Assembly: GCA_034676125.1 (NCBI GenBank)
Contig: JAUCCO010000001.1
Location: 9,788-73,787 of the forward strand
DNA from: Bacteroidia bacterium
GTDB taxonomy: Bacteria; Bacteroidota; Bacteroidia; UKL13-3
DNA length: 64,000 nt
Reading direction: 5' to 3'
The translations under genes were made by a program, and so were the position numbers. The number at the start of each line of letters is the position of its first letter. Position 1 is the stretch's first letter. Below, piece by piece: positions 1 to 12,817 of this stretch. The notes beneath the pieces are model-generated. The model saw only the letters and a program-made list of their open reading frames with translations, was not told the origin of the DNA and ran no database searches.

Positions 1-39
1 TTAGTTTATAATAATTAATTTGGTAAAGTAAAGGTTGTT

Positions 40-1029
40 TTAGTTACACTTATATCCAAAATATTGTCGAAAAAAATTTGGCAAGTGATGTTTCGTGCTA
101 TTAAACTTAAACTCGCTAGTAATTGCATAACCGCTTTGTGGCGAATTTACGGCACATATTTCAAACGTATTATTAATTGGTGTGTATGGTTTGCAAATGG
201 TTGATTGATTAAGTAACGCAGTTCCTTCTGTTTTAAAGTAAGTACTAATGAGCGCACAAATTGCAGTGTCTGTTTGTCCGTATTTAAGTAATAGATTATT
301 GTACAAACTATCAGAAATTAATTCAACACATTTTCCAAACTCGTGTTTCACATCATAAATAACCAACGATTTGTAAATTTTATTTTTTAATGATTCGTAG
401 TCTACTACTTCACCTTTTATGGTATCAATTGCCACAAATAAATCATATGGGTCAATAATATATTGATTGTTTTCAATAGTAATAATTGGGTAAGTGTGAA
501 TTCCTGGAATACTAACTTCGGTAGCTTTTATGTGCAATAAACTATCAAGTAATTTAATGTAAAATGCACTTCTATCGCCACACCAAGTTGGATATGTGTT
601 GTCGTTACCTTGTTGATAACGTTGCGCCAAACTCATGTTTTGCCAATTGGCTATGCTTATTTTATGGTTAGACAAGCCAAATTTGCTTCCCAAAAACTGA
701 CTGCTAAATAAGCTTGAGGCAAAACTAGCAATGGTTAAACATTTGAGGTAAGTTTTAGTCGCCCTATTAAATGATAATTGTGCAATAGAGTCAAAAGTTG
801 CGTTTAGTTTAATAATAGCATCATCATAACTTAATTGTATATTCTGGTTTAAACATTGTTGATTAAAAGTGCAGCTAAATACCTCCTTATTCTGTGTGTT
901 TATTTGTTGATTATTTGGTGCAATAATTGTATTTTGGAGTGCTTTTATTTCGATATTGTGGTTTGTTTTTTTGCAAGAAAAACTGAGTGCTGAAGTTAGT
1001 AAAACATAAATGATTAAAAATATTCTCAT
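40..1029 (-). CDS. Lipoprotein with transglutaminase-like cysteine-protease core
   Basis: N-terminus MRIFLIIYVLLTSALSFSC has a lipobox. WCGDRSAFYIKLLDSLL...HTYPIITI...IIDPYD matches the Cys/His/Asp spacing of transglutaminase-like domains. Confidence 0.5.
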   Translation of the reverse strand: MRIFLIIYVLLTSALSFSCKKTNHNIEIKALQNTIIAPNNQQINTQNKEVFSCTFNQQCLNQNIQLSYDDAIIKLNATFDSIAQLSFNRATKTYLKCLTIASFASSLFSSQFLGSKFGLSNHKISIANWQNMSLAQRYQQGNDNTYPTWCGDRSAFYIKLLDSLLHIKATEVSIPGIHTYPIITIENNQYIIDPYDLFVAIDTIKGEVVDYESLKNKIYKSLVIYDVKHEFGKCVELISDSLYNNLLLKYGQTDTAICALISTYFKTEGTALLNQSTICKPYTPINNTFEICAVNSPQSGYAITSEFKFNSTKHHLPNFFRQYFGYKCN

Positions 1030-1122
1030 AGCTTGTATGCGTTAACTTTTATTTGTATTAAATTAGTTGATGGATAAGCGCAATTCTCGTCTTCTTTTAT
1101 TGGCTTCATCAACAATTTATCA

Positions 1123-2295
1123 CTACTGGTTATTAAATTTTAATTTCTTTTTTAGATACTTTATTGCCGATGTTTTTTCCTTACGTAAATTTACTCCAAC
1201 AATTAAAAACAGAAAGAATATTGTGTAATTAACAACCCAACTTGCCAATTGCTTTACTCCAATAAAAAACAGTTTAAAATTAATACGCTGAAACCAGCTT
1301 TTTATAGGGTGAAACTTAAATCGAGGTATAAATAGAAAAAAGTGCATGGGCACTAAAATGGCCCAGTTGTGATGCTTTACAATTAGCGCAAATAAAATAC
1401 ATAAAGGTGCATAAAACTGGTAAAAGGCATCAGGTAAGTGTCTTGTTTTTTGATTTACAATTAAATGGTTTGAAAGGGACTTTCTGCTTGAATAAGCCCT
1501 ATAAACAATATAAACATACGGAGCAACTAAAACCAGAAGGATTTTGTATTGCATTGATGCAAGTGCAATAAATACTAAGCTAATTATACTCTCCGCAATT
1601 AAAAATAACCAAAGCAAGTTGTTTGTTTTTTTTACTCCAAGTACACGAGGTAAAGTAATTAGTCCTGCTGCTTTATCTTTAAAAATATCATTAATATAGT
1701 GTATAACAATGTTTCGAAGCCCCACGATAAAGAGTAATATCGAATATACTAAAATTAGCGCTGTTAGATGTGAGGCGGTATTTGCAGTGAATAAATAATA
1801 GGTATAGTAAGAAAGCAATAAGGGTATAATATAGGCATATAGTGAGTCTATAATTGGGGCAAGCCAAGTGTTAAGCTTGAGCCTTAATGGCGGCATTGCA
1901 TAGGCACAAAACAGTGTTATTTGACCTATGATAAGAATAATTGATATTTTGTTATATGGAAGGTACAACCACGGAATTAAGCATGATGATAGAATAACAA
2001 AAAGAAGGGATATTTTTTGGGTGTTACTTATGTTGCTTAATCGGTTTATTTTACCTGCAATGTAGTCGTGTTTTATATCAAAATACTCATTTATAAAGTA
2101 ACCAAGAGCTGCAAAACCAAATGAAGTTAACAATGAAAATAGTAAGAGTAATATTGATGATATGCTTAATTGTATTTCAAACAAAATAAGCCAAAGATAA
2201 AGGTTGCCAAAAATGTGTGGTATAAAGCTTAATCTCCAATCGCTAATACGAGAGGCCCTTGCTAACAATAAATATTTCTGTATTTTATTTCTCAC
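1123..2295 (-). CDS. Polytopic membrane protein, UbiA-superfamily prenyl/glycosyl-phosphate transferase-like
   Basis: About 9 hydrophobic helices. NEYFDIKHD motif (NxxxDxxxD) after TM2 resembles the first Asp-rich motif of UbiA-family transferases. Overlaps the upstream methyltransferase by 11 nt. Confidence 0.4.
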   Translation of the reverse strand: MRNKIQKYLLLARASRISDWRLSFIPHIFGNLYLWLILFEIQLSISSILLLLFSLLTSFGFAALGYFINEYFDIKHDYIAGKINRLSNISNTQKISLLFVILSSCLIPWLYLPYNKISIILIIGQITLFCAYAMPPLRLKLNTWLAPIIDSLYAYIIPLLLSYYTYYLFTANTASHLTALILVYSILLFIVGLRNIVIHYINDIFKDKAAGLITLPRVLGVKKTNNLLWLFLIAESIISLVFIALASMQYKILLVLVAPYVYIVYRAYSSRKSLSNHLIVNQKTRHLPDAFYQFYAPLCILFALIVKHHNWAILVPMHFFLFIPRFKFHPIKSWFQRINFKLFFIGVKQLASWVVNYTIFFLFLIVGVNLRKEKTSAIKYLKKKLKFNNQ

Positions 2296-3127
2296 GCTTA
2301 TTCATAAAATAAAGATGCATTTCAGCAGGATTTAATGGTTTAGGCTTAATGGCCATAATTTCATAAAAATCTATTGGAAATATGTAGTTATCCCATGAGT
2401 CAATTTTTGCGATATTAAAAAGGTTTTGGAAATCATTTGAGATAGATAAATGTTCAAATTTATCAAGTTCTATTTCTGGAGTTTTAACAAAACTCAATTC
2501 AAAACCCTTTGACCTTAGTTTTGTGATGACTAAATCAAGCGCTCCAATTTCATATTCATAGGCTTTGTTTATATCATCGCATAATTCGTTAATGCGAAGC
2601 TGCTCCCATTCATCATCGCTAATGCGTTTAAATAAATCTTTTATATATATCCTTCCACCGGGCTTCAAAACCTCCCAGCATTCATCTATTAGCTGGTTTT
2701 TTTGATTGGAGTGCCCGAAAGATTCTAAGAAATAAACCATATCAAAAGTGTTGGCACTAAACTTCTGAGATAACAGGTGATAATCTTGCTGCCAAACCGA
2801 TATTAAGCCAGTGGTATTAGTTTGCTTAATACTATTAAGAGCCATGTTATGTTGAACAGAAGAAATGGTACAGGCCTCTATTTTAATTTCAGGCACATGT
2901 TGTGCAAAGTATATGGCAGGGCCGCAAACACCGCAACCGGCATCAAGAATATGCTCGCCAGGTTTTATACGAGCCGATTTTATAGTATAGTCTAAATAAT
3001 CTGCAACATTTATGGTACGAAATGCCTGAATAATTTCACCATAAACGGCTAAAAACTTTTCGGTATTTAAATCATAAAAGGCTTTTACTTTTTCTGAATT
3101 ATTTATAATGGTGGCCTTGGTTTTCAT
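2285..3127 (-). CDS. Class I SAM-dependent methyltransferase
   Basis: Motif I ILDAGCGVCGPAIYFA, followed by the acidic motif II and post-I spacing typical of the Rossmann methyltransferase fold. Confidence 0.75.
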   Translation of the reverse strand: MKTKATIINNSEKVKAFYDLNTEKFLAVYGEIIQAFRTINVADYLDYTIKSARIKPGEHILDAGCGVCGPAIYFAQHVPEIKIEACTISSVQHNMALNSIKQTNTTGLISVWQQDYHLLSQKFSANTFDMVYFLESFGHSNQKNQLIDECWEVLKPGGRIYIKDLFKRISDDEWEQLRINELCDDINKAYEYEIGALDLVITKLRSKGFELSFVKTPEIELDKFEHLSISNDFQNLFNIAKIDSWDNYIFPIDFYEIMAIKPKPLNPAEMHLYFMNKREK

Positions 3128-3154
3128 GTTGGTTGCTTACCCGTTTTACAAAGA

Positions 3155-4003
3155 TTAATGCGATTTAATACCAAACAAACGTTTAAACCAAGGGTCGTTA
3201 TTAGCTGTGTTGTTTTTCATATAGCTCGGAATGTTTTTGTTAATATCTGCCGTCATTTTTACACGACCTATTTTCTTTAAAACTTCAGCGCCTTTATTAA
3301 TATTACTTCCTAAAAAAAAATCCTCGTTACTTTCGTAAACATCTACATATTCATTATCGCCAACATAATGTATCATTGGCACATCGTTAGGAATTGCCCC
3401 AAAAACAGTTGCTATGCGTTGAGATGTTGTTTGATTTGGAAAGGAGGCATGGAATAACCTTGCATCATAAATTAATGCTTCGCCAGCTTTTAAATTCATT
3501 GTTTGCATATTTTGCCAAATTTCTTCCTGCTTATTGGTAAACGTATCTGGTATTTTTGGCCCCCTATAATTTTTAGACCATAAGTGGCTTTTTGCTGTTA
3601 CCCTCATAGCTCCATTTTCCTCATTTACATCTACTAGTGGTACCCAAATATTGAACGCTCTATACTTGTCCTCATCAATAAAACCCCAATCCTGATGTGG
3701 GTGTAAGCGCTCTTTTTCCTTTTCTGTTTTAACAATAAAAATCCCACCAATTAATTTATGGTTAATAAAGTGCTCCTCAACTATTGGCATATATATCGAT
3801 TTTATTTTTTGCGTTATTTCTTGTCTTAATGGAATATTTTCAGAAAAAACGCTTGCATAAAAACCAGGTATATCGTTATTATGAAATTGAAAATAAAAAG
3901 ACAATAATTCATCAACTTTCGATTTGTCTAAAAATTGAATTACAGCAAATCCATCATAAGCAAGCTTTTCGTCTAATGCTTTGTTTTTTAGTACCTGTGC
4001 CAT
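3155..4003 (-). CDS. PhyH-family Fe(II)/2-oxoglutarate dioxygenase, paralog 1
   Basis: HPHQDWGF (HxD iron ligands) with a distal His in LFHASFPN. Paralogous to the two adjacent ORFs. Confidence 0.6.
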   Translation of the reverse strand: MAQVLKNKALDEKLAYDGFAVIQFLDKSKVDELLSFYFQFHNNDIPGFYASVFSENIPLRQEITQKIKSIYMPIVEEHFINHKLIGGIFIVKTEKEKERLHPHQDWGFIDEDKYRAFNIWVPLVDVNEENGAMRVTAKSHLWSKNYRGPKIPDTFTNKQEEIWQNMQTMNLKAGEALIYDARLFHASFPNQTTSQRIATVFGAIPNDVPMIHYVGDNEYVDVYESNEDFFLGSNINKGAEVLKKIGRVKMTADINKNIPSYMKNNTANNDPWFKRLFGIKSH

Positions 4004-4015
4004 ATTTTCTTATTG

Positions 4016-5083
4016 TTAGTATTTTCCTGTTAATCTATATTTTGATTCTTTATATACATTGTAAGGGGTGTATACCTTAAAGAAATGTGCTATCCTCTCT
4101 CTTGTGCTTGGCTTGTCGGCTTCGGAAGTGTTTGTTTGGTCTATAACTTGTTCTTTGTCCTCATGTTGTTGCTCAACTACAGGTCTTTGAATTGAGTATG
4201 AATTTTGAATACAACCATTTTCAACTAATAAATTAGTCATTTCACCTGTACTAAGCTTTTTGTTTGTAAACTCAAACTGATCTACTACTTCGCAATTTTG
4301 CGGAATGTTTCCTTGCATGTATGTATTAATCAAATCATCATTCATATAGTCCATAAAAAAGTCTTCTCCAACCTTTAATTTTAAAACCTGATTAGTAGTA
4401 CCTGGTTGTAAGAAATAATGATACAAGTTAGCGTCTTTTGGGGTAATTCCTATGCCAACAATTATACGGTCTTTACCTGATAAATTAGGGTTTGCGCCAT
4501 GTGCGCATTTGTTGTTAAACACGAGCCCATCACCTGCTTTTACTGTTGGAAAATTTAAGTATTGAAACAATAAATCCTCATGTCCTTGCGTAGAATTTAT
4601 AAATACAGATGAAGGAGATCCCACAATGCCATCTAAAAATTTGTGGCTGCCGTTTACAAAACCTAATGACCCAGTTTCTGGTGTTTGGTCTTCTAAACTT
4701 ATCCAAATAGTTGCCGAGAAATCGTCTAGATTTTTGTTGTCAACAAAAGTCCAATCTTGATGAGGATAGGTGTATGAAAAACTATCAGATTGCTTAATAA
4801 TAAATCCTCCTAAATGAACTTTATAGTTTTCTAATAAATTGTCTAATTTTGGTTGAATACTTTCTTGAATGTACAACATGGTTTCATCCTTAAACGCCCT
4901 ATCCTTATCATCTAAACTCACGTAAATGCCATAAACGGAATTTTTTACGTCTACTTTGCTTTTTATGTTGTTATAGTAGTTAAGTAGGTTGGCGCAAGTT
5001 TCGCTATCAAGCAGTGGAATGTTTACGTAACCATTCAACTCAAATTGTGATTGCTCTTGTATATTTTTAAAAACTTTATTCAT
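4016..5083 (-). CDS. PhyH-family Fe(II)/2-oxoglutarate dioxygenase, paralog 2
   Basis: YPHQDWTFVD with distal CAHGANPN. Same architecture as its neighbours. Confidence 0.6.
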   Translation of the reverse strand: MNKVFKNIQEQSQFELNGYVNIPLLDSETCANLLNYYNNIKSKVDVKNSVYGIYVSLDDKDRAFKDETMLYIQESIQPKLDNLLENYKVHLGGFIIKQSDSFSYTYPHQDWTFVDNKNLDDFSATIWISLEDQTPETGSLGFVNGSHKFLDGIVGSPSSVFINSTQGHEDLLFQYLNFPTVKAGDGLVFNNKCAHGANPNLSGKDRIIVGIGITPKDANLYHYFLQPGTTNQVLKLKVGEDFFMDYMNDDLINTYMQGNIPQNCEVVDQFEFTNKKLSTGEMTNLLVENGCIQNSYSIQRPVVEQQHEDKEQVIDQTNTSEADKPSTRERIAHFFKVYTPYNVYKESKYRLTGKY

Positions 5084-5150
5084 TTTTACTTTATTAATTC
5101 ATGTAAAAAATATTTGATAACCTGTTAATTCAGCAAACAAATTTATATTA

Positions 5151-6164
5151 TTAGCTATGTTTAAAATAATTTAATAAACGTAAAAACCAGCTATTTTTTT
5201 TATTTTTTTCGTTTGAGGTAGGCGTCTCGTTGTTGGTTGCCTTATCTGAATTATTTGGTTGTTGATCAAATAGCGTCTCATTATATGTTAAACCTTTACT
5301 TTTAAAATAATCAGCTATTTGCTCCCAGCTCATTTTAGGCAAATCATAGTCAATTTCATCAATAACTTGGTAAAGAAAATCATATTTCAAATTATTGCGG
5401 TATTGCATATCAATAGATGGGTGGTTATGATTAACTAAGAAATATTTATCAACTGCATATTTTAAAATAGTTTTGCCCTTGTTTTCGGGGTTTAAGCAAT
5501 AAACGTGCAGTGCTGCATTTTTAGGTGCAATACTTAAGCCAATGGCTAGTCGATTATTGGCTGATGAGTTGGGAAAGGAAGCGTGTGCTGTTTTGTGGTT
5601 AATGAATACCATTTCTCCTGCCTTCATTGGCTCGGGCTTCATTAAGCCCAGTAGTTTGTCGGAATATATATGTACTGGATTGAGTTCAAAAGGGAAGGGG
5701 AATGGCCTTATGTAGTTGAATATTTGGTTAGAATAAGGGACAAAAGTCATACAGCCATTTTTTTCGTCAACATCGGTAAGTGGTATCCAACACATTACCG
5801 AGTCGTTAATTCTCTCATCGGTAAAAGTCCAGTCTTGGTGTGGAGGTAAGAGGTGCGTTCCTTCAGGAACTTTATTCATAAAGGTTGCTGTAAATACATA
5901 CTTGTTATTTAGGTTGCCTATAACTTCATCCTCGATTATTGCGGTTATTTCGTCCTGCATAATTCTCCGCTTTTCTTTCTCATTAGTGTTTAAGCCTACA
6001 TTAAACCCAAATCCATAAGAATCGGGTATATTTAATTTATCATAAAGGGCGATAAGTTTTTTTATGCCTGCAGTAGATATTTGTGCATCTATAAGATAAC
6101 CCAATTGGTTAAATTGTTCATCTTTTGCTTCCTCATTAAAAAAATTAGCACGTGATAATGTCAT
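5151..6164 (-). CDS. PhyH-family Fe(II)/2-oxoglutarate dioxygenase, paralog 3
   Basis: PPHQDWTFTD with distal KTAHASFPN. C-terminal N/T/K-rich tail. Confidence 0.6.
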   Translation of the reverse strand: MTLSRANFFNEEAKDEQFNQLGYLIDAQISTAGIKKLIALYDKLNIPDSYGFGFNVGLNTNEKEKRRIMQDEITAIIEDEVIGNLNNKYVFTATFMNKVPEGTHLLPPHQDWTFTDERINDSVMCWIPLTDVDEKNGCMTFVPYSNQIFNYIRPFPFPFELNPVHIYSDKLLGLMKPEPMKAGEMVFINHKTAHASFPNSSANNRLAIGLSIAPKNAALHVYCLNPENKGKTILKYAVDKYFLVNHNHPSIDMQYRNNLKYDFLYQVIDEIDYDLPKMSWEQIADYFKSKGLTYNETLFDQQPNNSDKATNNETPTSNEKNKKNSWFLRLLNYFKHS

Positions 6165-6170
6165 GATAAA

Positions 6171-7280: not shown

Positions 7281-8098
7281 GCAAAATCACTAAATTTATT
7301 TTCGTTTTTATTGTAAAAGTACATGCCCGATAAGCATAATAAAATCACCATAGGCAATGTTACTAGCCATGCATAATTTGTTGGTGCTAAATCAAACAAG
7401 ATCCATCTCCACAGCTCAACTACACTTGCCATTGGGTTAAATGTAATAAGTAACTGTATTTTTTGTGGTAAAAAATTTGGTGTAAAAAAAACAGGTGTAA
7501 ACCAAATGCCAAAGTAAACGGTAAATGGTAATAAATGAAACAAATCTCTTTTGCGATAAGCAAATGCTGCTACCCAAAATACCAATGTTAGTGCACATAA
7601 TGCATTAAATAAAAGTACAAAAGGCACAAACATTAATTTCCATGTAATAGGCTGGTTAAAATAAAATAGTAAAGGGATAAGAATTACAAGGCTAATACAA
7701 AGCTCAACCAAAGCCACCAATACTTTTGACAGTGGCAAAATGCTTTTAGGGAAGTATATTTTTTTAATTAGGTGCGATGATTCCTGAACACTACTTGCAC
7801 CTGCGTTTACAATATATGAGAAAAAATTCCATCCTAATAAGCCCGATAATACATATAATGGGAAAGGTAAATCTCCCGTTTTCCAACCTAGCAAATACCC
7901 GAAAAAATAGGAGAATATAACCATCGCAGTTAATGGCTGCACAATGCTCCATCCTAATCCAATAAAGGTTTGCGCATATTTTACTTTAATATCTCTGCGG
8001 GCAAATGTCCATATCAATGCCTTATAGGTCCATATCTTTTTTAGGTACACTAAAAAGCTATCATCTTTGCTCGATATGATTTGTATTGGCTCAGACAT
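7277..8098 (-). CDS. ABC-2 type polysaccharide/teichoic-acid exporter permease (Wzm/KpsM/TagG-like)
   Basis: Six TM helices and the ABC-2 N-terminal pattern ...ARRDIKVKYAQTFIGLGWSIVQP. The ORF track gives 7277..8143. An internal Met start at 8098 avoids a 44-nt overlap with the DegT gene. Confidence 0.75.
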   Translation of the reverse strand: MSEPIQIISSKDDSFLVYLKKIWTYKALIWTFARRDIKVKYAQTFIGLGWSIVQPLTAMVIFSYFFGYLLGWKTGDLPFPLYVLSGLLGWNFFSYIVNAGASSVQESSHLIKKIYFPKSILPLSKVLVALVELCISLVILIPLLFYFNQPITWKLMFVPFVLLFNALCALTLVFWVAAFAYRKRDLFHLLPFTVYFGIWFTPVFFTPNFLPQKIQLLITFNPMASVVELWRWILFDLAPTNYAWLVTLPMVILLCLSGMYFYNKNENKFSDFA

Positions 8099-8099
8099 T

Positions 8100-9224
8100 T
8101 TAAGAATAGAATTGAGTAATTTTAGATGTTGTAAATTCAACATCTTTTACACTAATTTCTGAATGCATTGGTAAGCGCAAAATTCGTTCAGATATGTTAT
8201 TTGTATTGTTGGTGCCAATGTATTTAAACTTTTCTCCCATGGGCGAATTATGCAATGGCATATAGTGAAAATAAGCCTCTATGTTTTCTTGTGCTAAATA
8301 TTTGGCTAAGTTATCTCTTTCGTTTTTTGATTGTGTAATTAAATAAAATGCATGAATGTTTTCTTTAACCAGCGCTTCGTTTATCAATTGTATTTTACCG
8401 CTTTTTTCTAACGGCTTAAGTAACTCATAATAAAGGGAAGATAGTTTCTTTCTGTGTTCAAAAATAGGCTCTTCGTTTAATAAATCATCATATAAAACTG
8501 CTGCATTTAATTCGTTCATTTGATATTTAGAGCCCACATCTACCCATTCATAATGTGGAGCTTTTCCTGCAATAAAATCTTCGCGATTGGTGCCAATGTG
8601 ATAGATGTTTGCTGCCCTATTGGCATATTTTTTATTGTTTACCAATAACAACCCACCTTGCACAGCAGAAATATGTTTAGTAATATCAAAACTTATAACA
8701 CCAAAATCGCCAATGCTACCAAGTGGTTTATTGTTATAATAATTTCCATAAGCCATTGCGGCATCTTCAATTAAAATTAAATTATGATTTTGGCAAATTG
8801 CTTTTAACGCAATAAAATTACAAGCATGGCCAGCATAATGCATGGCAATGATGGCCTTTGTTTTTGTTGTTATTGCCGACTCTATAAGGCTTTCATCAAT
8901 GTTTAAAGTATCTGGATTTATATCAACAAATACTGGTGTTGCACCAACAGAAACAAATGCATTGGCTGTAGAAACATAAGTAAACGAAGGCATAATAATT
9001 TCATCACCAGCCTTTATATCTATAAGTGTTGCTATCATTTCTAAAGCACCCGTTGCCGAGTGGGTTAAAAATAATTTTGAATCAAAAAAACGTTTATTTA
9101 AATGGTTAATGCACAAGGTTGAGAAGTGTTTTTTTCTGAATAATTCATAATCAGAAAACAACAAGGCGATGTTTTTTGTATAATTGTCCGACTTACGAAC
9201 ATCGTTAAATAAAATTCGGCCCAT
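8100..9224 (-). CDS. DegT/DnrJ/EryC1/StrS-family PLP-dependent sugar aminotransferase
   Basis: Fold-type I aminotransferase with SFDITKHIS (PLP lysine) and GGLLL. Typical size of about 370 aa. Confidence 0.8.
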   Translation of the reverse strand: MGRILFNDVRKSDNYTKNIALLFSDYELFRKKHFSTLCINHLNKRFFDSKLFLTHSATGALEMIATLIDIKAGDEIIMPSFTYVSTANAFVSVGATPVFVDINPDTLNIDESLIESAITTKTKAIIAMHYAGHACNFIALKAICQNHNLILIEDAAMAYGNYYNNKPLGSIGDFGVISFDITKHISAVQGGLLLVNNKKYANRAANIYHIGTNREDFIAGKAPHYEWVDVGSKYQMNELNAAVLYDDLLNEEPIFEHRKKLSSLYYELLKPLEKSGKIQLINEALVKENIHAFYLITQSKNERDNLAKYLAQENIEAYFHYMPLHNSPMGEKFKYIGTNNTNNISERILRLPMHSEISVKDVEFTTSKITQFYS

Positions 9225-9310
9225 TGATTAAGTTAACACATATTATTAATCCGGTAAATGTAACCCAAAGCTCCGACTTACACAAGTCGCAGCCCATTAC
9301 ATTTAAGTCA

Positions 9311-10129
9311 ATGTTAGCCGCAAAATCATACACTGTAAACGATTGTTTAGTTACCCTTTGTACTACACAGTTTCAAGAAGATATTGCTATTATTCCTGAT
9401 GAGTTTTTACAACTTTCAAACCTAGAAAGGTCGGTGCTTGATGTTAATAAACAGCTTGTTGGTAAAAAGCTTCCGCTTATTGCCGATATACTAAACAAGC
9501 TAAAAGAAGTGCCCGATACCGACTATTATATTTACACAAATACCGACATTGCTTTGATGCCTTATTTTTATAATGTGGTACATCAACATGTACTTAATGG
9601 CTACGATGCAATTGTGATAAACAGACGAAGGTTGAGTATAAAATATAACGATGAATTAAGCCTTGATTTAATGTATGCAGATTTAGGAAAATCGCATCCA
9701 GGATTTGATTGCTTTGTTTTTAAAAAGGAGCTTTTGGCAAAGTTTGTTTTGGGTGATATTTGTGTTGGTATTCCGTTTGTTGAAGCAACGTTACTACACA
9801 ACATTTTTTCGTTTGCAAATAATCCTTTGTTTTTACCCGATGCTCATCTTACTTTTCATATTGGAATGGATGTTATGCCTGATAGAAACAAAGCGATGTA
9901 TTGGCACAATAGAAACGAGTTTTTCAAAAATATCTACCCAAAACTTAAGCCATTTTTTGATATAAATAAATTTCCTTATGCATCATTGCCAATGCATAAG
10001 CGTGCTTTAAAATGGATGTTAAACCCAAGTTTATTTTCATTAAATTATTTGGAGTTGGAAGGAAAATCAACCAAACAAAAAATTAAGTATTTATTAAACG
10101 AAATAAGGTGGAAAATTTTACAAAAATAA
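9311..10129 (+). CDS. Hypothetical protein, the only plus-strand gene inside the minus-strand cluster
   Basis: The ORF track's start at 9224 is a TTG that overlaps the DegT start codon head-to-head. The first ATG in frame (9311) leaves an 87-nt divergent intergenic region. No recognisable family. YIYTNTDIALMP hints at a nucleotide-sugar transferase-like fold. Confidence 0.4.
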   Translation: MLAAKSYTVNDCLVTLCTTQFQEDIAIIPDEFLQLSNLERSVLDVNKQLVGKKLPLIADILNKLKEVPDTDYYIYTNTDIALMPYFYNVVHQHVLNGYDAIVINRRRLSIKYNDELSLDLMYADLGKSHPGFDCFVFKKELLAKFVLGDICVGIPFVEATLLHNIFSFANNPLFLPDAHLTFHIGMDVMPDRNKAMYWHNRNEFFKNIYPKLKPFFDINKFPYASLPMHKRALKWMLNPSLFSLNYLELEGKSTKQKIKYLLNEIRWKILQK

Positions 10130-10130
10130 G

Positions 10131-10670
10131 TTAATGCTCAGCCAGTTTTTGGGCAAGTTTTTTCAATGAATCAAATTTGTTATTAAATAATTCGGGAGTT
10201 AAATTATATAAATCGAATTGGCTATTTAAGTGCTTATCTAAAACAAAGCCTAAACCCATATTATAGTTTATTGCAGCCTTGTTTGATTGTTTAACTTTTG
10301 CGTATACGGTTTTTAATTTTAATATATTAAATGCAAAAGTTAAAAGCATTAATGAAGCACCAAGTGAAACACCTGTGCCTGTGTATTTTTTTTCGGCAAT
10401 AAATAATCCAGCATGTGCCGATAGATTTTGGTTATCAAACTCGTTTAAATGTATCAAACCAATTTTGTTGTTTTGATGGGTAATAATAAAGTAGTAGTTT
10501 GGTTTTTTACTTAAATCATTAAACCAAACCATTTGTTGCGCGCTACCTATATGACCAGTAAATTCCATATTTTCTGCAATTTCTGGAGCATTTCGCCAGC
10601 CTCTTAATAATTCAATATCTGCTTCGGCCAATTCAGATAATGTTATTCCGTATTCGTTTAGTTTTCGCAA
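10131..10670 (-). CDS. GNAT-family N-acetyltransferase (RimL/PseH-like)
   Basis: WRNAPEI...IGLIHL...GTGVSLGASLMLLTFAFNILKLKTVYAKV matches the GNAT A/B motifs. Adjacent to a sugar aminotransferase. Confidence 0.7.
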   Translation of the reverse strand: MRKLNEYGITLSELAEADIELLRGWRNAPEIAENMEFTGHIGSAQQMVWFNDLSKKPNYYFIITHQNNKIGLIHLNEFDNQNLSAHAGLFIAEKKYTGTGVSLGASLMLLTFAFNILKLKTVYAKVKQSNKAAINYNMGLGFVLDKHLNSQFDLYNLTPELFNNKFDSLKKLAQKLAEH

Positions 10671-11578
10671 AGTTCAGCTATTATCACATGGTCTAATAAT
10701 TGTTTAGACACCCAAATGCGCCTTATATATTCACCAATTATTCCTAGCGAAAATAATATTAATCCGGTTGAAAAAAATATGGCCACAATTAATGATGTAA
10801 ATCCAATTTCTGCATCAAAAGCCAGTTTTTTATAAATGTAATAACAGCCCATTACAAAAAATGCAATCGACATCCATAAGCCTAATCTACTAATAATTTT
10901 AAGTGGTAGGGTAGAGTGTAAAAGCAAAATGCTGATGGCCATTTTAATCAACTTAAATATGGTGTACCCAGATTTACCAATGGCTCTAGCCCTATGTTCA
11001 ACAATACACGACTTTACTTTTTGTGCACCCAACAATAAATAATCATCAATAAAAAATATTTTGTTTTGTTGCTTTTTAAAAACAGTAATTACCGATTTTT
11101 TAATAAGCCTACAAGAGGTTACCATCGAATAATCTCTACCACCCGTTTGCAATATTTTTTGCAAAGTTCGGGTGCCAATATTTCTTATAGAGTTATGCTT
11201 TTTTTGGGTGTAGTTGCCATAAACCAAGTCGCAATTATCATTAATCATACAATTATACATGCTGTCTATCACACTTGGGTCGTGCTGCAAATCATCATCA
11301 ATTGTAGCAATTAAATTATTGGTGCAGTAATAAAACCCAATTGCAGTTGCAGTATGTTGGCCATAGTTTTGCGCTAGGGTAATAAATTTGTATGATATTG
11401 AAGACTGCTTTAATGCCTTTAATAATTCGTTTCCTGTTTTATCAATACTTCCATCATTCACAAAAATAAATGTTGGTTTTAGTTGAGTTGTTAATGTCCA
11501 ACTTGCTAGGCTATCTACCAAATTTACCATATTGGCTTCGGAGTGGTAAACAGGAATTACTACATCTATTCCAATCAT
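10658..11578 (-). CDS. Family-2 glycosyltransferase with two C-terminal TM helices (ArnC/GtrB/DPM1-like polyprenyl-phosphate glycosyltransferase)
   Basis: VVIPVYHSEAN, then DDDLQHDP (DxD), and two C-terminal hydrophobic helices. Confidence 0.75.
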   Translation of the reverse strand: MIGIDVVIPVYHSEANMVNLVDSLASWTLTTQLKPTFIFVNDGSIDKTGNELLKALKQSSISYKFITLAQNYGQHTATAIGFYYCTNNLIATIDDDLQHDPSVIDSMYNCMINDNCDLVYGNYTQKKHNSIRNIGTRTLQKILQTGGRDYSMVTSCRLIKKSVITVFKKQQNKIFFIDDYLLLGAQKVKSCIVEHRARAIGKSGYTIFKLIKMAISILLLHSTLPLKIISRLGLWMSIAFFVMGCYYIYKKLAFDAEIGFTSLIVAIFFSTGLILFSLGIIGEYIRRIWVSKQLLDHVIIAELCEN

Positions 11579-12576
11579 ATTTCTATTAGTTTAATGGGTA
11601 AATTAATAGGAATTTTAATTAAGGCAGATGCAATAGAAAATCCAACACCAAAACCACACAATAAAACCAAATTGTTTCTATCGGTAATTAAGTTTAAGTT
11701 TTCACATAAAGTAATTGGAATACTGGCTGATGCAGTATTGCCATATTTACCGAGTGTTTGTGGAGCATTTTGTAACGGCACATTTAGTTTTTTACAAATG
11801 GCATCGTTTATTAATTTATTGGCTTGATGTAAAATATAGCAACTAGGTTCTTCGGTATTTAAGTTAGCAGCAGCTAGTAAAGTATTAATATTTTGAGGTA
11901 CATGTTTTACAGAATAAGCAAAAACATCAATACCATTTAATCGCATTTTTTTCTCGTTATTTTCGGTGGTTTCTGTATATATGGCTTGTTGTCCAGCGCC
12001 AAATGTTTCTAAGTTAAAATACGAGTAGTTTTCTTCATCATCCTTATCAAAAGTTATAGCTGTAATCGAAACGGCATCAGAAAAAATGGGTTGGGTTGAG
12101 GTATCATTATTAAAAAGCAATTGGCTTGATACATCGCCACAACATAAAATAGCTTTAGGATTTTTTTTATCAATTGTTGATAATATCGAAGCAACCGTTT
12201 GTAAACCATAAACATATCCTGAACAACCTGCATTTATATCATAACAAAGCGTTTGCGTTCCAAAATTTAAATCACCATGAATTTTGCATGCAATAGAAGG
12301 AATGCCCACATCAGGAGTTTGTGTTACACATATTAACACATCAACATCACTTGCTTGCAGTTTTAATAGGTCAAACAATTGTTTTATGCCGCTTTCAAAC
12401 AAACTTTTAACGGGCTTATCCGTAACTCTTCTATATCTAATTCCTGTATGTTCAATAAGCTTTATTCTGTCGGCTTCACTAGGTATAAGCGATAATTGCA
12501 TATTATCTACAACCTGCTTGGGTAGCACATTTACAATTGCAGTTATGTTTACTCCTTTGTGTTTACTTATCGCCAT
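11575..12576 (-). CDS. 3-oxoacyl-ACP synthase III (FabH-like KAS III)
   Basis: Catalytic triad context NAGCSGYVYGL (Cys), HQANKLI (His), GNTASASIP (Asn). The ORF track gives 12591 as start; an internal Met at 12576 (MAISKHKGVNITAI) matches FabH N-termini. Confidence 0.8.
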   Translation of the reverse strand: MAISKHKGVNITAIVNVLPKQVVDNMQLSLIPSEADRIKLIEHTGIRYRRVTDKPVKSLFESGIKQLFDLLKLQASDVDVLICVTQTPDVGIPSIACKIHGDLNFGTQTLCYDINAGCSGYVYGLQTVASILSTIDKKNPKAILCCGDVSSQLLFNNDTSTQPIFSDAVSITAITFDKDDEENYSYFNLETFGAGQQAIYTETTENNEKKMRLNGIDVFAYSVKHVPQNINTLLAAANLNTEEPSCYILHQANKLINDAICKKLNVPLQNAPQTLGKYGNTASASIPITLCENLNLITDRNNLVLLCGFGVGFSIASALIKIPINLPIKLIEI

Positions 12577-12817
12577 TTGTTTTTGCAACAATCAATTGAT
12601 AGATGTCTTCAAACGTGTTTAGTTCTGCCAATTCTGATGAGGTAATAAGCACTTCTGTTTCTTCGTTAATTCTAGATATATAAATTAAAGCGTTAAGCGA
12701 ACTCCAATTTGTAGCAGTTCTAAATGTTGCAGCAAGTAAAATCTCATCTACTGGAATTAATAATTCAGCAGAGGTAAACGCCAAAAACGCATCTTTATTG
12801 GTAAGTTTTATACTCAT
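12563..12817 (-). CDS. Small acidic acyl-carrier-protein-like protein
   Basis: 84-aa acidic helical protein immediately upstream of, and overlapping, the FabH-like gene. The canonical DSL site is degenerate (SSEL). Confidence 0.35.
   Translation of the reverse strand: MSIKLTNKDAFLAFTSAELLIPVDEILLAATFRTATNWSSLNALIYISRINEETEVLITSSELAELNTFEDIYQLIVAKTNGDK

What the first reader, a model, noticed from the sequence alone, without database searches (positions are those of the whole stretch)
40..12817. Accessory ABC-exported glycoconjugate or glycolipid cluster combining lipid (ACP/FabH), aminosugar (DegT/GNAT/GT2) and tailoring (3x PhyH dioxygenase, methyltransferase, UbiA-like) enzymes
One minus-strand, tightly packed gene string encodes the following. 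ACP-like then FabH-like makes an acyl starter or acyl donor. An ArnC-like membrane GT2 would produce a polyprenyl-phosphate sugar. A GNAT with a DegT aminotransferase would make an N-acetylated aminosugar. A Wzm/Wzt-type ABC-2 exporter carries a C-terminal extension domain, which in Wzt proteins binds a terminal cap. There are also three PhyH-type hydroxylases, a SAM methyltransferase (a possible chain-capping methylase, as in ABC-dependent O-antigen systems), a UbiA-superfamily membrane transferase and a transglutaminase-like lipoprotein. No polymerase or flippase of the Wzx/Wzy type is present. The product is probably an exported acylated and hydroxylated aminoglycan or glycolipid. It cannot be assigned to a known pathway.
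Basis: partly seen in the sequence, partly recalled or inferred. Interest (0 to 1): 0.55.

Follow-up and report, generated by a model that had tools for sequence, protein, structure and literature searches.

The report
Hypervariable ABC-exported surface-glycan locus
This is the visible part of a cell-surface sugar-polymer gene cluster from an uncultured Bacteroidota bacterium: one half is conserved, and the other half, made of oxygenases, a methyltransferase and a prenyltransferase-like enzyme, is swapped between close relatives much as O-antigen serotype genes are.

Summary
There are three corrections.

1. Positions 9224-10129 hold a plus-strand gene inside the string. It encodes a very conserved, unannotated GT-A glycosyltransferase.
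2. The cluster runs off the left end of the window. An AsnB-type amidotransferase starts 3 bp beyond position 1.
3. The region has two parts, not one uniform operon.
   - Conserved part: ACP, FabH, a polyprenyl-phosphate GT2, GNAT, the GT-A and a WecE aminotransferase.
   - Replaceable cassette: wzm, wzt with its C-terminal domain, three PhyH genes, the methyltransferase, UbiA and a lipoprotein.

Three related genomes carry three different cassettes at the same chromosomal site. The Wzt C-terminal domain follows the cassette type, not the genome's relatedness.

My best reading is a Wzm/Wzt-dependent, O-antigen- or capsule-like glycan. It would contain an N-acylated 4-amino-4,6-dideoxyhexose and carry strain-specific oxidative, methyl and possibly prenyl tailoring.

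The UbiA belongs to a small clade known only from metagenome-assembled genomes. It shows no detectable affinity to the polyprenyl-phosphoribose synthases, which are the only UbiA-family enzymes I found characterised in wzm/wzt loci. In one relative it is fused to an OlsC/LpxO-type lipid hydroxylase.

The product is unknown. I rate it a new variant of a known kind, of moderate interest.

The parts
12563..12817 (-). Dedicated acyl carrier protein (84 aa)
   Evidence: PF00550 scores 19.3 bits, just under the cut-off of 20.8. The motif W38-S39-S40-L41-N42-A43-L44 is invariant in four orthologues. The gene always lies directly upstream of FabH and overlaps it.
11575..12591 (-). KAS III (FabH-like) condensing enzyme
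   Evidence: PF08541 83 bits and PF08545 36 bits. NF006829 scores 198 bits, below its cut-off of 249. Cys123, His255 and Asn285 are invariant.
10658..11578 (-). GT2 of the polyprenyl-phosphate glycosyltransferase type (ArnC/GtrB/PgfS-like)
   Evidence: PF00535 73 bits. Best NCBIfam hits are ArnC at 107 bits and PgfS at 91 bits, both below their cut-offs. A hydrophobic segment spans aa 252-285. The protein is 98% identical in the sister genome L038.
10131..10670 (-). GNAT N-acyltransferase, PseH-like
   Evidence: PF13302 51 bits. TIGR03585 (PseH, the N-acetyltransferase of a UDP-4-amino-4,6-dideoxy sugar) scores 72.8 bits against a cut-off of 93.
9224..10129 (+).
   Evidence: No Pfam, NCBIfam or PDB sequence hit. 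More than 1,155 homologues; the best 120 listed are 59-100% identical, and every one that carries a name is called hypothetical. AF2 model pLDDT 82. Foldseek top hits are RmlT, TarP, WrtF, SpsA, ArnC and GtrB, E 2e-8 to 1e-6. N106-x-D108 is invariant. Its start codon shares base 9224 with the divergent WecE start.
8100..9224 (-). WecE-type PLP aminotransferase (dTDP-4-amino-4,6-dideoxyhexose synthesis)
   Evidence: PF01041 263 bits. NF008687 equivalog scores 402.7 bits, above its cut-off of 375.
7277..8143 (-). Wzm ABC-2 permease; first gene of the variable cassette
   Evidence: PF01061 51.5 bits. Best NCBIfam hit is the galactan Wzm. It is only 61% identical to the sister genome L038, where the upstream genes are 83-98% identical.
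6606..7280 (-). Wzt nucleotide-binding domain (aa 1 to about 225)
   Evidence: phmmer against the PDB gives Aquifex aeolicus Wzt (6AMX, 8DKU) at E 1e-51, then TagH/TarH and mycobacterial RfbE. Top NCBIfam hits are TagH and the galactan Wzt.
6171..6605 (-). Wzt C-terminal variable domain (about 144 aa)
   Evidence: It cannot be aligned with the sister genome L038. It aligns with L009 and L010, which carry the same tailoring genes. DNA homology to L038 ends at window position 6737. The fold was not determined.
5151..6164 (-). PhyH-family Fe(II)/2-oxoglutarate dioxygenase (c)
   Evidence: PF05721 76 bits, HQD motif. Nearest solved structures are SnoK and SnoN at E about 3e-5. The L009 orthologue is 55% identical.
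4016..5083 (-). PhyH-family dioxygenase (b)
   Evidence: PF05721 56.5 bits, HQD motif. The L009 orthologue is 57% identical.
3155..4003 (-). PhyH-family dioxygenase (a); member of the conserved PhyH-MT-UbiA triad
   Evidence: PF05721 81 bits. Nearest solved structures are MysH at 6e-8 and SnoN at 2.5e-7. The order PhyH-MT-UbiA is found in 15 of 31 unique loci.
2285..3127 (-). Class I SAM methyltransferase (CMAS/UbiE-like), overlapping the UbiA start
   Evidence: Methyltransf_25, Methyltransf_11 and CMAS score 42-47 bits. Nearest solved structures are 3BUS, MitM and 5GM1. It lies immediately upstream of UbiA in 22 of 31 loci.
1123..2295 (-). UbiA-superfamily membrane transferase of a small clade known only from MAGs
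   Evidence: PF01040 48.5 bits. Motifs N69-E70-xx-D73-xxx-D77 and D203-xxx-D207 are invariant. Only 77 homologue clusters among 5.8 billion. A profile search against the PDB finds only chlorophyll synthase (1e-3), AfUbiA and ApUbiA, and no phosphoribosyltransferase entry.
40..1029 (-). Lipoprotein with a conserved Cys-His-Asp triad (possible transglutaminase/papain-like fold)
   Evidence: The lipobox Cys19 is conserved. C150 and D193 are invariant and H178 is at least 90% conserved in 27 sequences. Only 70 representatives among 1.84 billion. AF2 model pLDDT 90. The best Foldseek matches are weak (E at least 0.013) and most of the leading ones are Cys-protease, NAT or transglutaminase-fold proteins.
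1..39 (.). Intergenic spacer; the cluster continues beyond the window edge
   Evidence: L001 is 100% identical to window 1-3017 and carries a 591-aa AsnB-like amidotransferase that starts 3 bp past position 1. In the colinear locus L009 the order continues AsnB, SDR epimerase/dehydratase, F4 (a DxD protein), F18, GDSL-like, F25 ... carbamoyltransferase.

Best explanation
Window 1-12,817 is the right-hand part of a roughly 20-25 kb locus for a cell-surface glycan exported by a Wzm/Wzt ABC transporter. The glycan would be O-antigen- or capsule-like, and the host is an uncultured Bacteroidota bacterium that has a type IX secretion system (T9SS).

**Shown:**
- The locus has a conserved half and a replaceable half.
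- The conserved half is ACP, FabH, GT2, GNAT, the GT-A and WecE.
- The replaceable half is wzm, wzt (including its C-terminal domain), three PhyH genes, the methyltransferase, UbiA and the lipoprotein. It differs between close relatives at the same chromosomal site.

**Inferred mechanism:**
1. WecE turns dTDP-4-keto-6-deoxyglucose into a dTDP-4-amino-4,6-dideoxyhexose (Fuc4N type).
2. The PseH-like GNAT N-acylates it. The acyl group is either acetyl or a short 3-oxoacyl unit built by the dedicated FabH on the dedicated ACP, following the predicted wfpC-G route of Flavobacterium psychrophilum.
3. The sugar enters the product by one or both of two routes. The soluble GT-A may add it in the cytoplasm. 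Alternatively the ArnC/GtrB-type GT2 may load it onto polyprenyl phosphate for use by a periplasmic GT-C, an enzyme seen in related loci.
4. The PhyH-MT-UbiA triad and the two further PhyH enzymes add strain-specific hydroxyl, methyl and possibly prenyl groups at the cytoplasmic face of the membrane. The target is most likely a lipid-like (acyl or prenyl) substituent.
5. Wzm/Wzt export the lipid-linked product.
6. The lipoprotein acts on the product outside the cytoplasm.
For: **Domain assignments:**

**Wzt:** the nucleotide-binding domain matches solved polysaccharide and teichoic-acid exporters (A. aeolicus Wzt at E 1e-51).

**Cassette structure:**
- Window against the sister genome L038 gives 83-98% amino-acid identity from ACP to WecE, 61% for Wzm and 58% for the Wzt nucleotide-binding domain. 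Beyond that there is no homology; DNA homology ends at position 6737.
- A third relative, L042, has the same adhesin flank and the same conserved half, followed by wzm, six PhyH genes, MT and UbiA.
- The Wzt C-terminal domain is shared only with L009 and L010, which are distant genomes with the same tailoring genes.
- L009 and L010 are colinear with the window over 11-14 genes.

**ACP module:** ACP-FabH-GT2-GNAT are contiguous in the window, L038, L039, L042 and L032.

**Missed gene:** the plus-strand gene has a GT-A fold.

**UbiA and oxygenase link:**
- PhyH-MT-UbiA is conserved in 15 of 31 loci, and MT-UbiA in 22 of 31.
- In L041 the UbiA-like domain is fused to an OlsC/LpxO-type acyl 2-hydroxylase domain.

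**Glycan context in relatives:** WbuX amidotransferase, carbamoyltransferase, an SDR sugar epimerase/dehydratase, GT-C proteins with TPR repeats, and a family-F4 protein that is sometimes fused to a Caps_synth / Gly_transf_sug DXD domain.

**Composition:** the locus is 32.5% G+C against 35.6% for the rest of the window.

**Precedents:** PMC6519341, PMC3441752, PMC11127046 and bioRxiv 10.1101/2022.03.02.482478.
Against: - No product has been observed, and every relative is a metagenome-assembled genome or a metagenomic contig.
- No polymerising multi-domain glycosyltransferase, initiating phosphoglycosyltransferase, WaaL ligase or outer-membrane export component is visible. The polymer nature and its attachment are therefore assumed.
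- The Wzt C-terminal domain has no detectable sequence similarity to known Wzt carbohydrate-binding modules, and its fold was not determined.
- The window holds no ketoreductase for the acyl chain, no flippase and no GT-C.
- The nearest solved relatives of the PhyH enzymes and the methyltransferase are small-molecule natural-product enzymes.
- PhyH arrays also occur in loci with no FabH/ACP within 10 kb, so their substrate need not be the N-acyl chain.
- In L039 the aminotransferase is reduced to a remnant while the ACP module persists.
Confidence: 0.65

Rival explanations
1. The UbiA enzyme is a polyprenyl-phosphate phosphoribosyltransferase. With a flippase and a GT-C it would form a three-component system that adds a pentofuranose side chain to the exported glycan in the periplasm. 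The adjacent PhyH would act as a SnoN-like radical epimerase on the lipid-linked pentose, and the methyltransferase would O-methylate it.
For: - The UbiA-family enzymes I found characterised in wzm/wzt O-antigen loci work this way (PMC11127046).
- Xanthomonas wzm/wzt cassettes also carry UbiA, oxidoreductase and GtrA genes.
- GT-C-type proteins of about 850-940 aa with TPR repeats occur in related loci L006, L032, L033 and L019.
- SnoN, a sugar C4 epimerase, is among the nearest solved relatives of PhyH a and c.
Against: - A 19-sequence profile of this UbiA clade finds chlorophyll synthase, AfUbiA and ApUbiA in the PDB but no phosphoribosyltransferase entry, even at E up to 10. PMC11127046 cites a solved DPPRS structure, 8J8J; I did not confirm that it is in the library searched.
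- No NCBIfam phosphoribosyltransferase model is hit by any UbiA of these loci.
- The window holds no HAD or PAP2 phosphatase domain, no MATE/SMR/GtrA flippase, no DprE1/E2 genes and no GT-C.
- The fusion partner in L041 is a lipid acyl hydroxylase, not a sugar-modifying enzyme.
Confidence: 0.15
2. The cassette makes a small secreted or membrane natural product rather than a polymer, for example a prenylated, hydroxylated, methylated N-acyl aminosugar glycolipid or a meroterpenoid. The ABC-2 pair would act as a DrrAB-like efflux pump for it.
For: - The nearest solved relatives of the PhyH enzymes (MysH, SnoK, SnoN) and of the methyltransferase (3BUS, MitM, 5GM1) are secondary-metabolite enzymes.
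- Relatives add P450s, WelO5-like oxygenases, B12-dependent and twitch-domain radical SAM enzymes, carbamoyltransferase with SxtJ, and a second UbiA.
- No polymerase-type glycosyltransferase is visible.
Against: - The ATPase scores far higher against Wzt/TagH-type polymer exporters (159-161 bits; A. aeolicus Wzt at 1e-51) than against DrrA (104 bits).
- It carries the C-terminal extension typical of Wzt.
- A polyprenyl-phosphate GT2, a WecE equivalog, WbuX, an SDR sugar epimerase, GT-A proteins, DxD-motif proteins and GT-C proteins all point to lipid-linked glycan assembly.
- Allelic replacement at a fixed chromosomal site is the behaviour of surface-antigen loci.
Confidence: 0.12
3. The aminosugar module is an Arn/Gtr-like envelope-modification pathway. 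WecE, GNAT and the ArnC-like GT2 would make polyprenyl-P-(N-acyl)Fuc4N. A periplasmic GT-C would then transfer it to lipid A, to the LPS core or to proteins, rather than into a new polymer.
For: - The GT2's best family hits are ArnC and PgfS, the latter being part of a protein-glycosylation machinery.
- The aminotransferase is in the same family as ArnB.
- ArnT-family (PMT_2) proteins lie in related loci.
- The ACP-FabH-GT2-GNAT block is an optional add-on, absent from L041 and L043, as expected for a decoration.
Against: - The GT2 is far below the ArnC cut-off (107 bits against 529).
- No flippase or GT-C is in the window.
- The constant partners of the aminotransferase are the soluble GT-A and wzm/wzt, not the GT2. 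This argues that the sugar also enters a cytoplasmically built, ABC-exported chain.
Confidence: 0.1
4. The ACP/FabH pair and the tailoring genes are unrelated neighbours of a polysaccharide operon, brought together by chance.
For: The plus-strand gene interrupts the string. The ACP module is missing from some loci.
Against: - ACP-FabH-GT2-GNAT keep their order and their overlapping stop/start junctions in five loci, down to 37-47% identity.
- In the distant locus L032 they sit next to MT-UbiA-AsnB, in a different arrangement.
- The tailoring genes co-vary with the Wzt C-terminal domain.
Confidence: 0.03

Closest known systems
ABC transporter-dependent O-polysaccharide loci with a Wzt C-terminal recognition domain (E. 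coli O9a / Citrobacter youngae type, as described in PMC11127046)
   Same: Both have a Wzm permease, and a Wzt ATPase with a C-terminal extension that is specific to the glycan type. Neither has Wzx or Wzy. Both carry a methyltransferase in the locus, have low G+C, and are exchanged as a cassette between relatives.
   Different: This locus has no WbdD-like terminator: the methyltransferase is a single 280-aa domain with no kinase domain or coiled-coil ruler. No multi-module polymerising glycosyltransferase is visible. The C-terminal domain has no detectable sequence similarity to known Wzt modules. The host is a Bacteroidota bacterium, and ligation or anchoring is unknown.
Flavobacterium psychrophilum O-polysaccharide genes wfpC-wfpG (PMC6519341)
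   Same: Both have a locus-specific ACP plus 3-ketoacyl-ACP synthase genes next to an N-acyltransferase and an aminotransferase. In F. psychrophilum these are predicted to N-acylate a 4-amino-4,6-dideoxy sugar with a short hydroxylated acyl chain. Both organisms are Bacteroidota.
   Different: That locus is Wzy-dependent. It has two KAS genes and a ketoreductase, uses a PglD-type (not GNAT) acyltransferase, and acts on a UDP-linked bacillosamine-type sugar. Here there is one KAS III, no ketoreductase, a WecE/dTDP-type aminotransferase and an extra polyprenyl-phosphate GT2.
Vibrio cholerae O1 wbe (rfb) region (PMC3441752)
   Same: It makes an ABC transporter-exported chain of a 4-amino-4,6-dideoxyhexose whose amine carries a hydroxylated short acyl group (tetronate). 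A dedicated gene block makes the acyl group, and a locus-encoded methylase adds a terminal methyl group. N-acylation appears to be needed for export.
   Different: The sugar is GDP-perosamine, not a dTDP sugar. There is no FabH, PhyH, UbiA, polyprenyl-phosphate GT2 or lipoprotein. That the tetronate genes include an ACP is my recollection and was not checked here.
Three-component pentofuranose side-chain systems (UbiA-type PPPRS + MATE flippase + GT136 GT-C; PMC11127046) and Xanthomonas wzm/wzt LPS cassettes with UbiA (bioRxiv 10.1101/2022.03.02.482478)
   Same: A UbiA-superfamily membrane enzyme lies inside a hypervariable wzm/wzt locus. GT-C proteins are present in some related loci. Genes annotated as methyltransferase and phytanoyl-CoA dioxygenase occur in the Xanthomonas cassettes.
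   Different: This UbiA clade shows no detectable affinity to DPPRS/PPPRS. It has no phosphatase domain and no flippase or DprE partners. It is coupled to a methyltransferase and 2OG dioxygenases, and in one relative it is fused to a lipid acyl hydroxylase.

Membership tests
ABC transporter-dependent (Wzm/Wzt) glycan export pathway | ABC-2 family integral membrane permease (Wzm) | tested here: met
   PF01061 scores 51.5 bits, above its cut-off of 26.9. The best NCBIfam hit is the galactan Wzm at 49.7 bits, below its equivalog cut-off.
ABC transporter-dependent (Wzm/Wzt) glycan export pathway | Wzt/TagH-type nucleotide-binding protein | tested here: met
   A. aeolicus Wzt at E 1e-51, followed by TagH, TarH and mycobacterial RfbE. 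Top NCBIfam hits are TagH and the galactan Wzt at about 160 bits, all below their equivalog cut-offs.
ABC transporter-dependent (Wzm/Wzt) glycan export pathway | Wzt C-terminal carbohydrate-binding module that recognises the chain terminus | tested here: inconclusive
   An extension of about 144 aa is present. It co-varies with the tailoring genes and not with phylogeny. It has no sequence match to solved Wzt modules and no homologues by word search. Fold and binding were not tested.
ABC transporter-dependent (Wzm/Wzt) glycan export pathway | Chain terminator with a coiled-coil molecular ruler (WbdD-like kinase/methyltransferase) | tested here: not met
   The only methyltransferase is 280 aa. 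Its single class I domain covers aa 43-175, and Pfam reports no kinase domain. A coiled-coil predictor was not run. A terminator could lie outside the window.
ABC transporter-dependent (Wzm/Wzt) glycan export pathway | Cytoplasmic polymerising glycosyltransferases, Und-P initiation and ligation to an acceptor | not testable with these tools
   The window holds one soluble GT-A and one polyprenyl-phosphate GT2. The colinear locus L009 adds F4, a DxD-motif protein. No initiating transferase or ligase was seen within the fetched flanks.
Three-component pentofuranose glycosylation system (PMC11127046) | UbiA-family enzyme whose closest characterised homologue is DPPRS/PPPRS | tested here: not met
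   Single-sequence and profile searches of the PDB return only chlorophyll synthase, AfUbiA and ApUbiA. NCBIfam hits are generic prenyltransferases, ChlG, DGGGP synthase and MenA. I did not confirm that a DPPRS entry or model is present in either library.
Three-component pentofuranose glycosylation system (PMC11127046) | Phosphoribose phosphatase (a fused HAD domain or a separate enzyme) | tested here: not met
   None of the 14 window proteins has a HAD or PAP2 domain. The PAP2 gene at 63001-63603 is 50 kb away.
Three-component pentofuranose glycosylation system (PMC11127046) | MATE/SMR flippase and a GT-C transferase | tested here: not met
   Both are absent from the window. PMT_2 or TPR-bearing proteins of 850-936 aa are present in relatives L006, L032, L033 and L019, so this could still be met outside the window.
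ACP-dependent N-acylation of 4-amino-4,6-dideoxy sugars (F. psychrophilum wfp type) | Locus-specific ACP plus ketoacyl-ACP synthase | tested here: met
   The ACP serine motif is invariant, as is the FabH Cys-His-Asn triad. The two genes are contiguous in five loci.
ACP-dependent N-acylation of 4-amino-4,6-dideoxy sugars (F. psychrophilum wfp type) | Aminotransferase that makes the 4-amino sugar, and an N-acyltransferase | tested here: met
   The WecE equivalog scores above its cut-off. The PseH-like GNAT scores 72.8 bits, below its cut-off. The acyl donor, ACP or CoA, was not tested.
ACP-dependent N-acylation of 4-amino-4,6-dideoxy sugars (F. psychrophilum wfp type) | 3-ketoacyl-ACP reductase for the hydroxyacyl chain | tested here: not met
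   There is no SDR/KR protein among the window ORFs. A housekeeping FabG, or hydroxylation by the PhyH enzymes, would have to substitute.
Transglutaminase-like / papain-like Cys-His-Asp enzymes (for the lipoprotein 40-1029) | Conserved Cys-His-Asp triad on a transglutaminase-type core fold | tested here: inconclusive
   The triad is conserved. Pfam Transglut_core gives no hit. In the Foldseek search most of the leading matches are to this superfamily, but they are weak: E 0.013-0.9 and TM-score 0.2-0.25.

The most novel reading that the evidence does not exclude
The conserved PhyH-methyltransferase-UbiA triad, plus the extra PhyH copies (up to eight genes in relatives), installs and then methylates and poly-hydroxylates an isoprenoid or other lipid-like, non-carbohydrate substituent on a lipid-linked surface glycan or on its N-acyl aminosugar. 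The cassette-specific Wzt C-terminal domain reads this substituent as the export signal. That would be a prenyl-decorated bacterial surface polysaccharide made by a previously unrecognised UbiA clade. Rapid cassette exchange would generate antigenic diversity through oxygenation patterns rather than through sugar composition.
Probability: 0.12. Interest if true: 0.8.

Novelty: new variant of a known kind. Interest (0 to 1): 0.42.

Why it matters
Wzm/Wzt-dependent glycans are hardly studied in Bacteroidota. The diversity of surface glycans in abundant, uncultured Bacteroidota is likely to shape phage susceptibility and grazing.

In this locus family the variable part is dominated by Fe/2OG dioxygenases, methyltransferases, radical SAM enzymes and a UbiA clade of unknown reaction. 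That differs from the usual picture of serotype diversity arising from glycosyltransferase swaps. If the tailoring targets a lipid-like substituent, it would add a new chemical dimension to bacterial surface antigens. It would also assign a first function to a UbiA branch and to a GT-A family with more than a thousand members, all of them unannotated.

If the tailoring turns out to be ordinary sugar hydroxylation and methylation, this is simply one more O-antigen-like locus.

Tried and rejected
- **Lasso-peptide or RiPP cluster.** I considered this because of the AsnB-like gene, the transglutaminase-like protein and the radical SAM/SPASM genes in relatives. I rejected it for three reasons. The AsnB passes the asparagine-synthase model and is nearest to the EPS amidotransferase model. 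The radical SAM proteins belong to the N-terminal-twitch family NF033640. The surrounding genes are sugar-nucleotide enzymes and glycosyltransferases.
- **Quinone-type pathway** (UbiA, methyltransferase, three hydroxylases). Rejected because these genes sit inside a wzm/wzt cassette that is replaced between sister genomes, and no aromatic-precursor genes are present.
- **Halogenase reading of the PhyH enzymes.** The chlorinating-enzyme hits are weak and all three proteins keep the HxD motif, so I rejected it.
- **Link to the neighbouring T9SS adhesins.** The adjacency is kept in L038 and L042 but not in L039, L041 or L043. It reflects chromosomal position in one lineage, not a conserved functional link.
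- **Wzt C-terminal domain.** A word-index search returned nothing.
- **Sequence searches of the lipoprotein, the GT-A and family F4** against the PDB and Pfam found nothing significant.
- **Literature.** A search combining UbiA, PhyH, ABC-2 and Bacteroidetes returned no paper.
- **Source genome.** The window's own genome is not among the GTDB representatives, and its 93-kb NCBI contig could not be fetched. The left part of the locus is therefore inferred from L001 and the colinear locus L009.

Full report

The region 40-12,817 holds 13 tightly packed or overlapping minus-strand ORFs and one plus-strand ORF.
- UbiA: 48.5 bits.
- A class I methyltransferase.
- Three PhyH dioxygenases (81, 56.5 and 76 bits), each with an HQD iron motif.
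- A Wzt/TagH-type ABC ATPase with about 144 extra C-terminal residues.
- An ABC-2 permease.
- A DegT aminotransferase that passes the NCBIfam equivalog cut-off for the dTDP-4-amino-4,6-dideoxygalactose transaminase WecE (402.7 bits against 375).
- A PseH-like GNAT.
- A GT2 whose best hits are ArnC and PgfS and which has a C-terminal membrane segment.
- A FabH with an invariant Cys-His-Asn triad.

The ACP is just below the Pfam cut-off. It carries an invariant WSSLNAL serine motif and is always coupled to FabH.

There are two factual corrections.

First, 9224-10129 is a real plus-strand gene embedded in the string. It has more than 1,155 homologues; the 120 best are 59-100% identical, and every one that carries a name is called hypothetical. 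A confident AlphaFold model (pLDDT 82) matches GT-A glycosyltransferases such as RmlT, TarP, WrtF, SpsA, ArnC and GtrB.

Second, the cluster is cut by the window edge. Contig L001 is 100% identical to window 1-3017, and it continues with a 591-aa AsnB-type amidotransferase that starts 3 bp beyond position 1.

**2. Boundaries and host**

On the right the locus ends at a 126-bp divergent spacer. Beyond it lies a 3,173-aa type IX secretion (T9SS) adhesin gene. The rest of the window holds further T9SS cargo genes, PorP/SprF, an ECF sigma factor and housekeeping genes. The host is therefore a Bacteroidota bacterium. The locus is 32.5% G+C against 35.6% elsewhere in the window.

**3. Comparative evidence: a conserved half and a replaceable cassette**

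A sister genome (L038) has the same adhesin flank and 80% DNA identity from window position 6737 to 20121. Left of 6737, a point inside wzt, nothing aligns.

| Gene | Amino-acid identity, window vs L038 |
|---|---|
| ACP | 90% |
| FabH | 91% |
| GT2 | 98% |
| GNAT | 89% |
| GT-A | 91% |
| WecE | 83% |
| Wzm | 61% |
| Wzt nucleotide-binding domain | 58% |
| Wzt C-terminal domain and all genes further left | no orthologue (only distant PhyH-family paralogues, 27-38%) |

In place of the window's tailoring genes, L038 has a TylF-type methyltransferase, two PhyH genes, a radical SAM gene and a P450.

A third relative (L042) shares the same flank and the same conserved half. It then carries wzm, six PhyH genes, the methyltransferase and UbiA.

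Two phylogenetically distant contigs (L009, L010) show the opposite pattern. Their UbiA is only 52% identical to the window's, yet they are colinear with the window gene for gene: GT2, GNAT, GT-A, WecE, Wzm, Wzt, the PhyH genes (three in L009), MT and UbiA, with the lipoprotein and AsnB following in L009. Their Wzt aligns with the window's over its full length, including the C-terminal domain. A phmmer search with that domain alone finds only L009 and L010 among 15 Wzt homologues.

So wzm, both parts of wzt and the tailoring genes move together as a cassette, and the Wzt C-terminal domain tracks the cassette type. This is how O-antigen or capsule serotype loci behave, and how a product-recognising Wzt module would behave, as described for the E. 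coli O9a type in PMC11127046.

**4. The wider family**

The UbiA belongs to a small clade: 77 clusters among 5.8 billion proteins, and 31 loci in the GTDB representative genomes. All are metagenome-assembled genomes (MAGs) of Chitinophagales, Flavobacteriales, Saprospiraceae and related groups.

Among 31 unique loci:
- the methyltransferase lies immediately upstream of UbiA in 22;
- the order PhyH-MT-UbiA occurs in 15;
- an AsnB-like gene follows within three genes in 17;
- an unannotated DxD-motif protein (family F4), sometimes fused to a Caps_synth / Gly_transf_sug domain, follows within five genes in 20.

Other recurrent partners:
- one to eight PhyH genes per locus;
- N-terminal-twitch radical SAM proteins (NF033640);
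- carbamoyltransferase, with SxtJ in L009 and a DUF5989 gene in L006;
- the WbuX sugar amidotransferase;
- SDR sugar epimerase/dehydratase;
- GDSL-like proteins;
- GT-C-like proteins of about 850-940 aa with TPR repeats;
- WelO5-like oxygenases and a second UbiA.

The GT-A gene is far more widespread than the UbiA. Its constant neighbours are the aminotransferase and wzm/wzt. The ACP-FabH-GT2-GNAT block is an optional but recurrent add-on: present in the window, L038, L039, L042 and L032, absent from L041 and L043.

**5. What the parts most likely do**

- *Shown:* the domain identities, the conservation of catalytic residues, the synteny and the cassette exchange.
- *Inferred from family knowledge:* WecE makes a dTDP-4-amino-4,6-dideoxyhexose. 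The GNAT's nearest family is PseH, which acetylates the 4-amine of a UDP-4-amino-4,6-dideoxy sugar, so it most likely N-acylates the WecE product.
- *Acyl donor:* a dedicated FabH and ACP beside such an acyltransferase has a direct Bacteroidota precedent. In the Flavobacterium psychrophilum O-polysaccharide locus, an ACP, two KAS enzymes, a ketoreductase and an acyltransferase are predicted to attach 3,5-dihydroxyhexanoyl to a 4-amino sugar (PMC6519341). Vibrio cholerae O1 exports, through an ABC transporter, a polymer of a 4-amino-4,6-dideoxyhexose that is N-acylated with tetronate and capped with a methyl group (PMC3441752). Here there is no ketoreductase, so the acyl group may be acetoacetyl, a housekeeping reductase may act, or the GNAT may simply use acetyl-CoA.
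- *Route of the sugar:* the ArnC/GtrB-type GT2 implies a polyprenyl-phosphate-linked form of the sugar for periplasmic transfer. The soluble GT-A offers a cytoplasmic route. Which route is used, or whether both are, is not known.

**6. The tailoring cassette**

The nearest solved relatives of the PhyH enzymes are MysH, and SnoK and SnoN. From my own knowledge, the last two act on the aminosugar of nogalamycin. The methyltransferase's nearest solved relatives are 3BUS, MitM and 5GM1. From memory, not checked here, 3BUS is the sugar O-methyltransferase RebM and 5GM1 is the prenyl C-methyltransferase TleD. On these matches alone, sugar and lipid targets are both possible.

The most informative clue is a fusion in locus L041. 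A 568-aa protein has an N-terminal 350 residues that align with the window's UbiA over its whole length: 24% identity, an NDxxDxxxD motif, and a hit to the same NCBIfam prenyltransferase model. Its C-terminal domain is an OlsC/LpxO-type lipid acyl 2-hydroxylase, at E 1.5e-32.

This fusion ties the UbiA-like enzyme to a 2OG dioxygenase acting at the membrane, and it favours a lipid-like substrate. The substrate could be the N-acyl chain, or a prenyl group transferred by the UbiA.

The periplasmic lipoprotein belongs to a rare family, with 70 representatives among 1.84 billion. It has a conserved Cys-His-Asp triad. Its confident model finds only weak fold matches, most of the leading ones to papain, transglutaminase and arylamine-N-acetyltransferase type enzymes.

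**7. Rival readings**

- *Three-component pentofuranose system.* The only role I found characterised for a UbiA enzyme in wzm/wzt loci is polyprenyl-phosphoribose synthesis for periplasmic pentofuranose side chains (PMC11127046). I tested this reading and it is not supported. Profile searches with the clade find chlorophyll synthase and archaeal UbiA in the PDB but no phosphoribosyltransferase entry. No UbiA of these loci hits a phosphoribosyltransferase model. The window has no phosphatase, flippase, DprE genes or GT-C. GT-C proteins in relatives keep the idea alive at low probability.
- *Small-molecule natural product.* This fits the enzyme flavour. It does not fit the Wzt-type ATPase, the polyprenyl-phosphate GT2, the sugar-nucleotide genes or the allelic behaviour of the locus.
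- *Chance neighbours.* Synteny excludes this.

**8. Comparison with known systems, and novelty**

The architecture is that of an ABC transporter-dependent surface-glycan locus, which is a known kind. It is not a member of any characterised serotype cluster. All close relatives are uncultured, and a literature search for this gene combination found nothing.

The unusual features are:
- tandem PhyH arrays as the main variable element;
- a UbiA clade unrelated to the phosphoribose synthases, coupled to a methyltransferase and dioxygenases;
- a very conserved, unannotated GT-A whose start codon overlaps the divergent wecE start.

I class it as a new variant of a known kind. Interest is moderate, at 0.42. 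The chemistry may be new, but the product is unknown and the general logic is familiar.

**9. Limits**

- No product has been observed.
- The polymer nature is assumed.
- The left third of the locus is inferred from L001 and L009.
- The fold of the Wzt C-terminal domain was not modelled.
- Gene calls in the fetched loci come from my own ORF finder plus BLAST clustering.

Noticed in passing
window 9222-9226: The ATG of the minus-strand wecE and the TTG of the plus-strand GT-A gene share base 9224, so the two divergent genes have no intergenic promoter space. The GT-A gene also ends 1 bp from the convergent GNAT stop. Any read-through from the ACP-GNAT genes into wecE would run antisense across the whole GT-A gene. 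The arrangement is kept in L009, L010, L038, L039 and L042.
   Followed up: partly
L041:5056-6762 (minus strand): A 568-aa fusion protein. Its N-terminal domain is homologous over its full length to the window's UbiA. Its C-terminal domain is an OlsC/LpxO-type lipid acyl 2-hydroxylase (NF052565, E 1.5e-32).
   Followed up: partly
L011, L012, L004, L042, L043 (regions upstream of MT-UbiA): Tandem arrays of five to eight PhyH dioxygenase genes, including double-domain proteins of about 645 aa, sit in the variable cassette. This is an unusual paralogue expansion for a glycan locus.
   Followed up: partly
L012:11123-12810; also L011 and L033: Directly after wzt these loci carry a second, shorter UbiA-family gene (275 aa; PF01040, 68.7 bits). 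One or two WelO5-like 2OG oxygenase or halogenase genes follow (PF22814, 159 bits). I did not check whether they have the halogenase HxG motif or the hydroxylase HxD motif.
   Followed up: no
L039:9636-10001: In this locus the wecE aminotransferase is reduced to a remnant of 100-121 aa, while ACP-FabH-GT2-GNAT and the GT-A remain intact. Either another aminotransferase serves the pathway or the module is decaying.
   Followed up: no
L009:18741-21108; L006:17465-17617: In L009 the carbamoyltransferase is accompanied by a small SxtJ-family membrane protein. L006 carries a 50-aa DUF5989 gene. From memory, these small proteins accompany the saxitoxin carbamoyltransferase SxtI. That would suggest a shared O-carbamoylation module.
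   Followed up: no
window 12944-31367, 31433-36013, 36692-43175, 45203-46114: A dense field of T9SS cargo genes. It includes giant adhesins of 3,173 aa (Laminin_G_3), 2,324 aa (16 cadherin repeats), 1,526 aa and 1,853 aa (PKD repeats), with CHU_C or Por_Secre_tail sorting domains. A PorP/SprF-OmpA pair lies at 29516-31367 and an ECF sigma factor at 36151-36702. The first adhesin is the conserved right flank of the glycan locus in L038 and L042.
   Followed up: partly
window 50027-51748 and 46077-46697: Two ORFs, of 573 aa and 206 aa, have no Pfam hit at E 1e-4 or better.
   Followed up: no
L002, L003, L020, L022, L024, L030, L031, L033 (downstream of UbiA-F4): A conserved trio of N-terminal-twitch radical SAM genes (about 520, 485 and 505 aa; NF033640), often with two or three further copies, follows the UbiA-F4 pair in the Chitinophagales-type loci. 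These copies appear in loci where the ABC transporter is not seen nearby. B12-binding radical SAM genes occur in L019, L024, L029 and L036.
   Followed up: no
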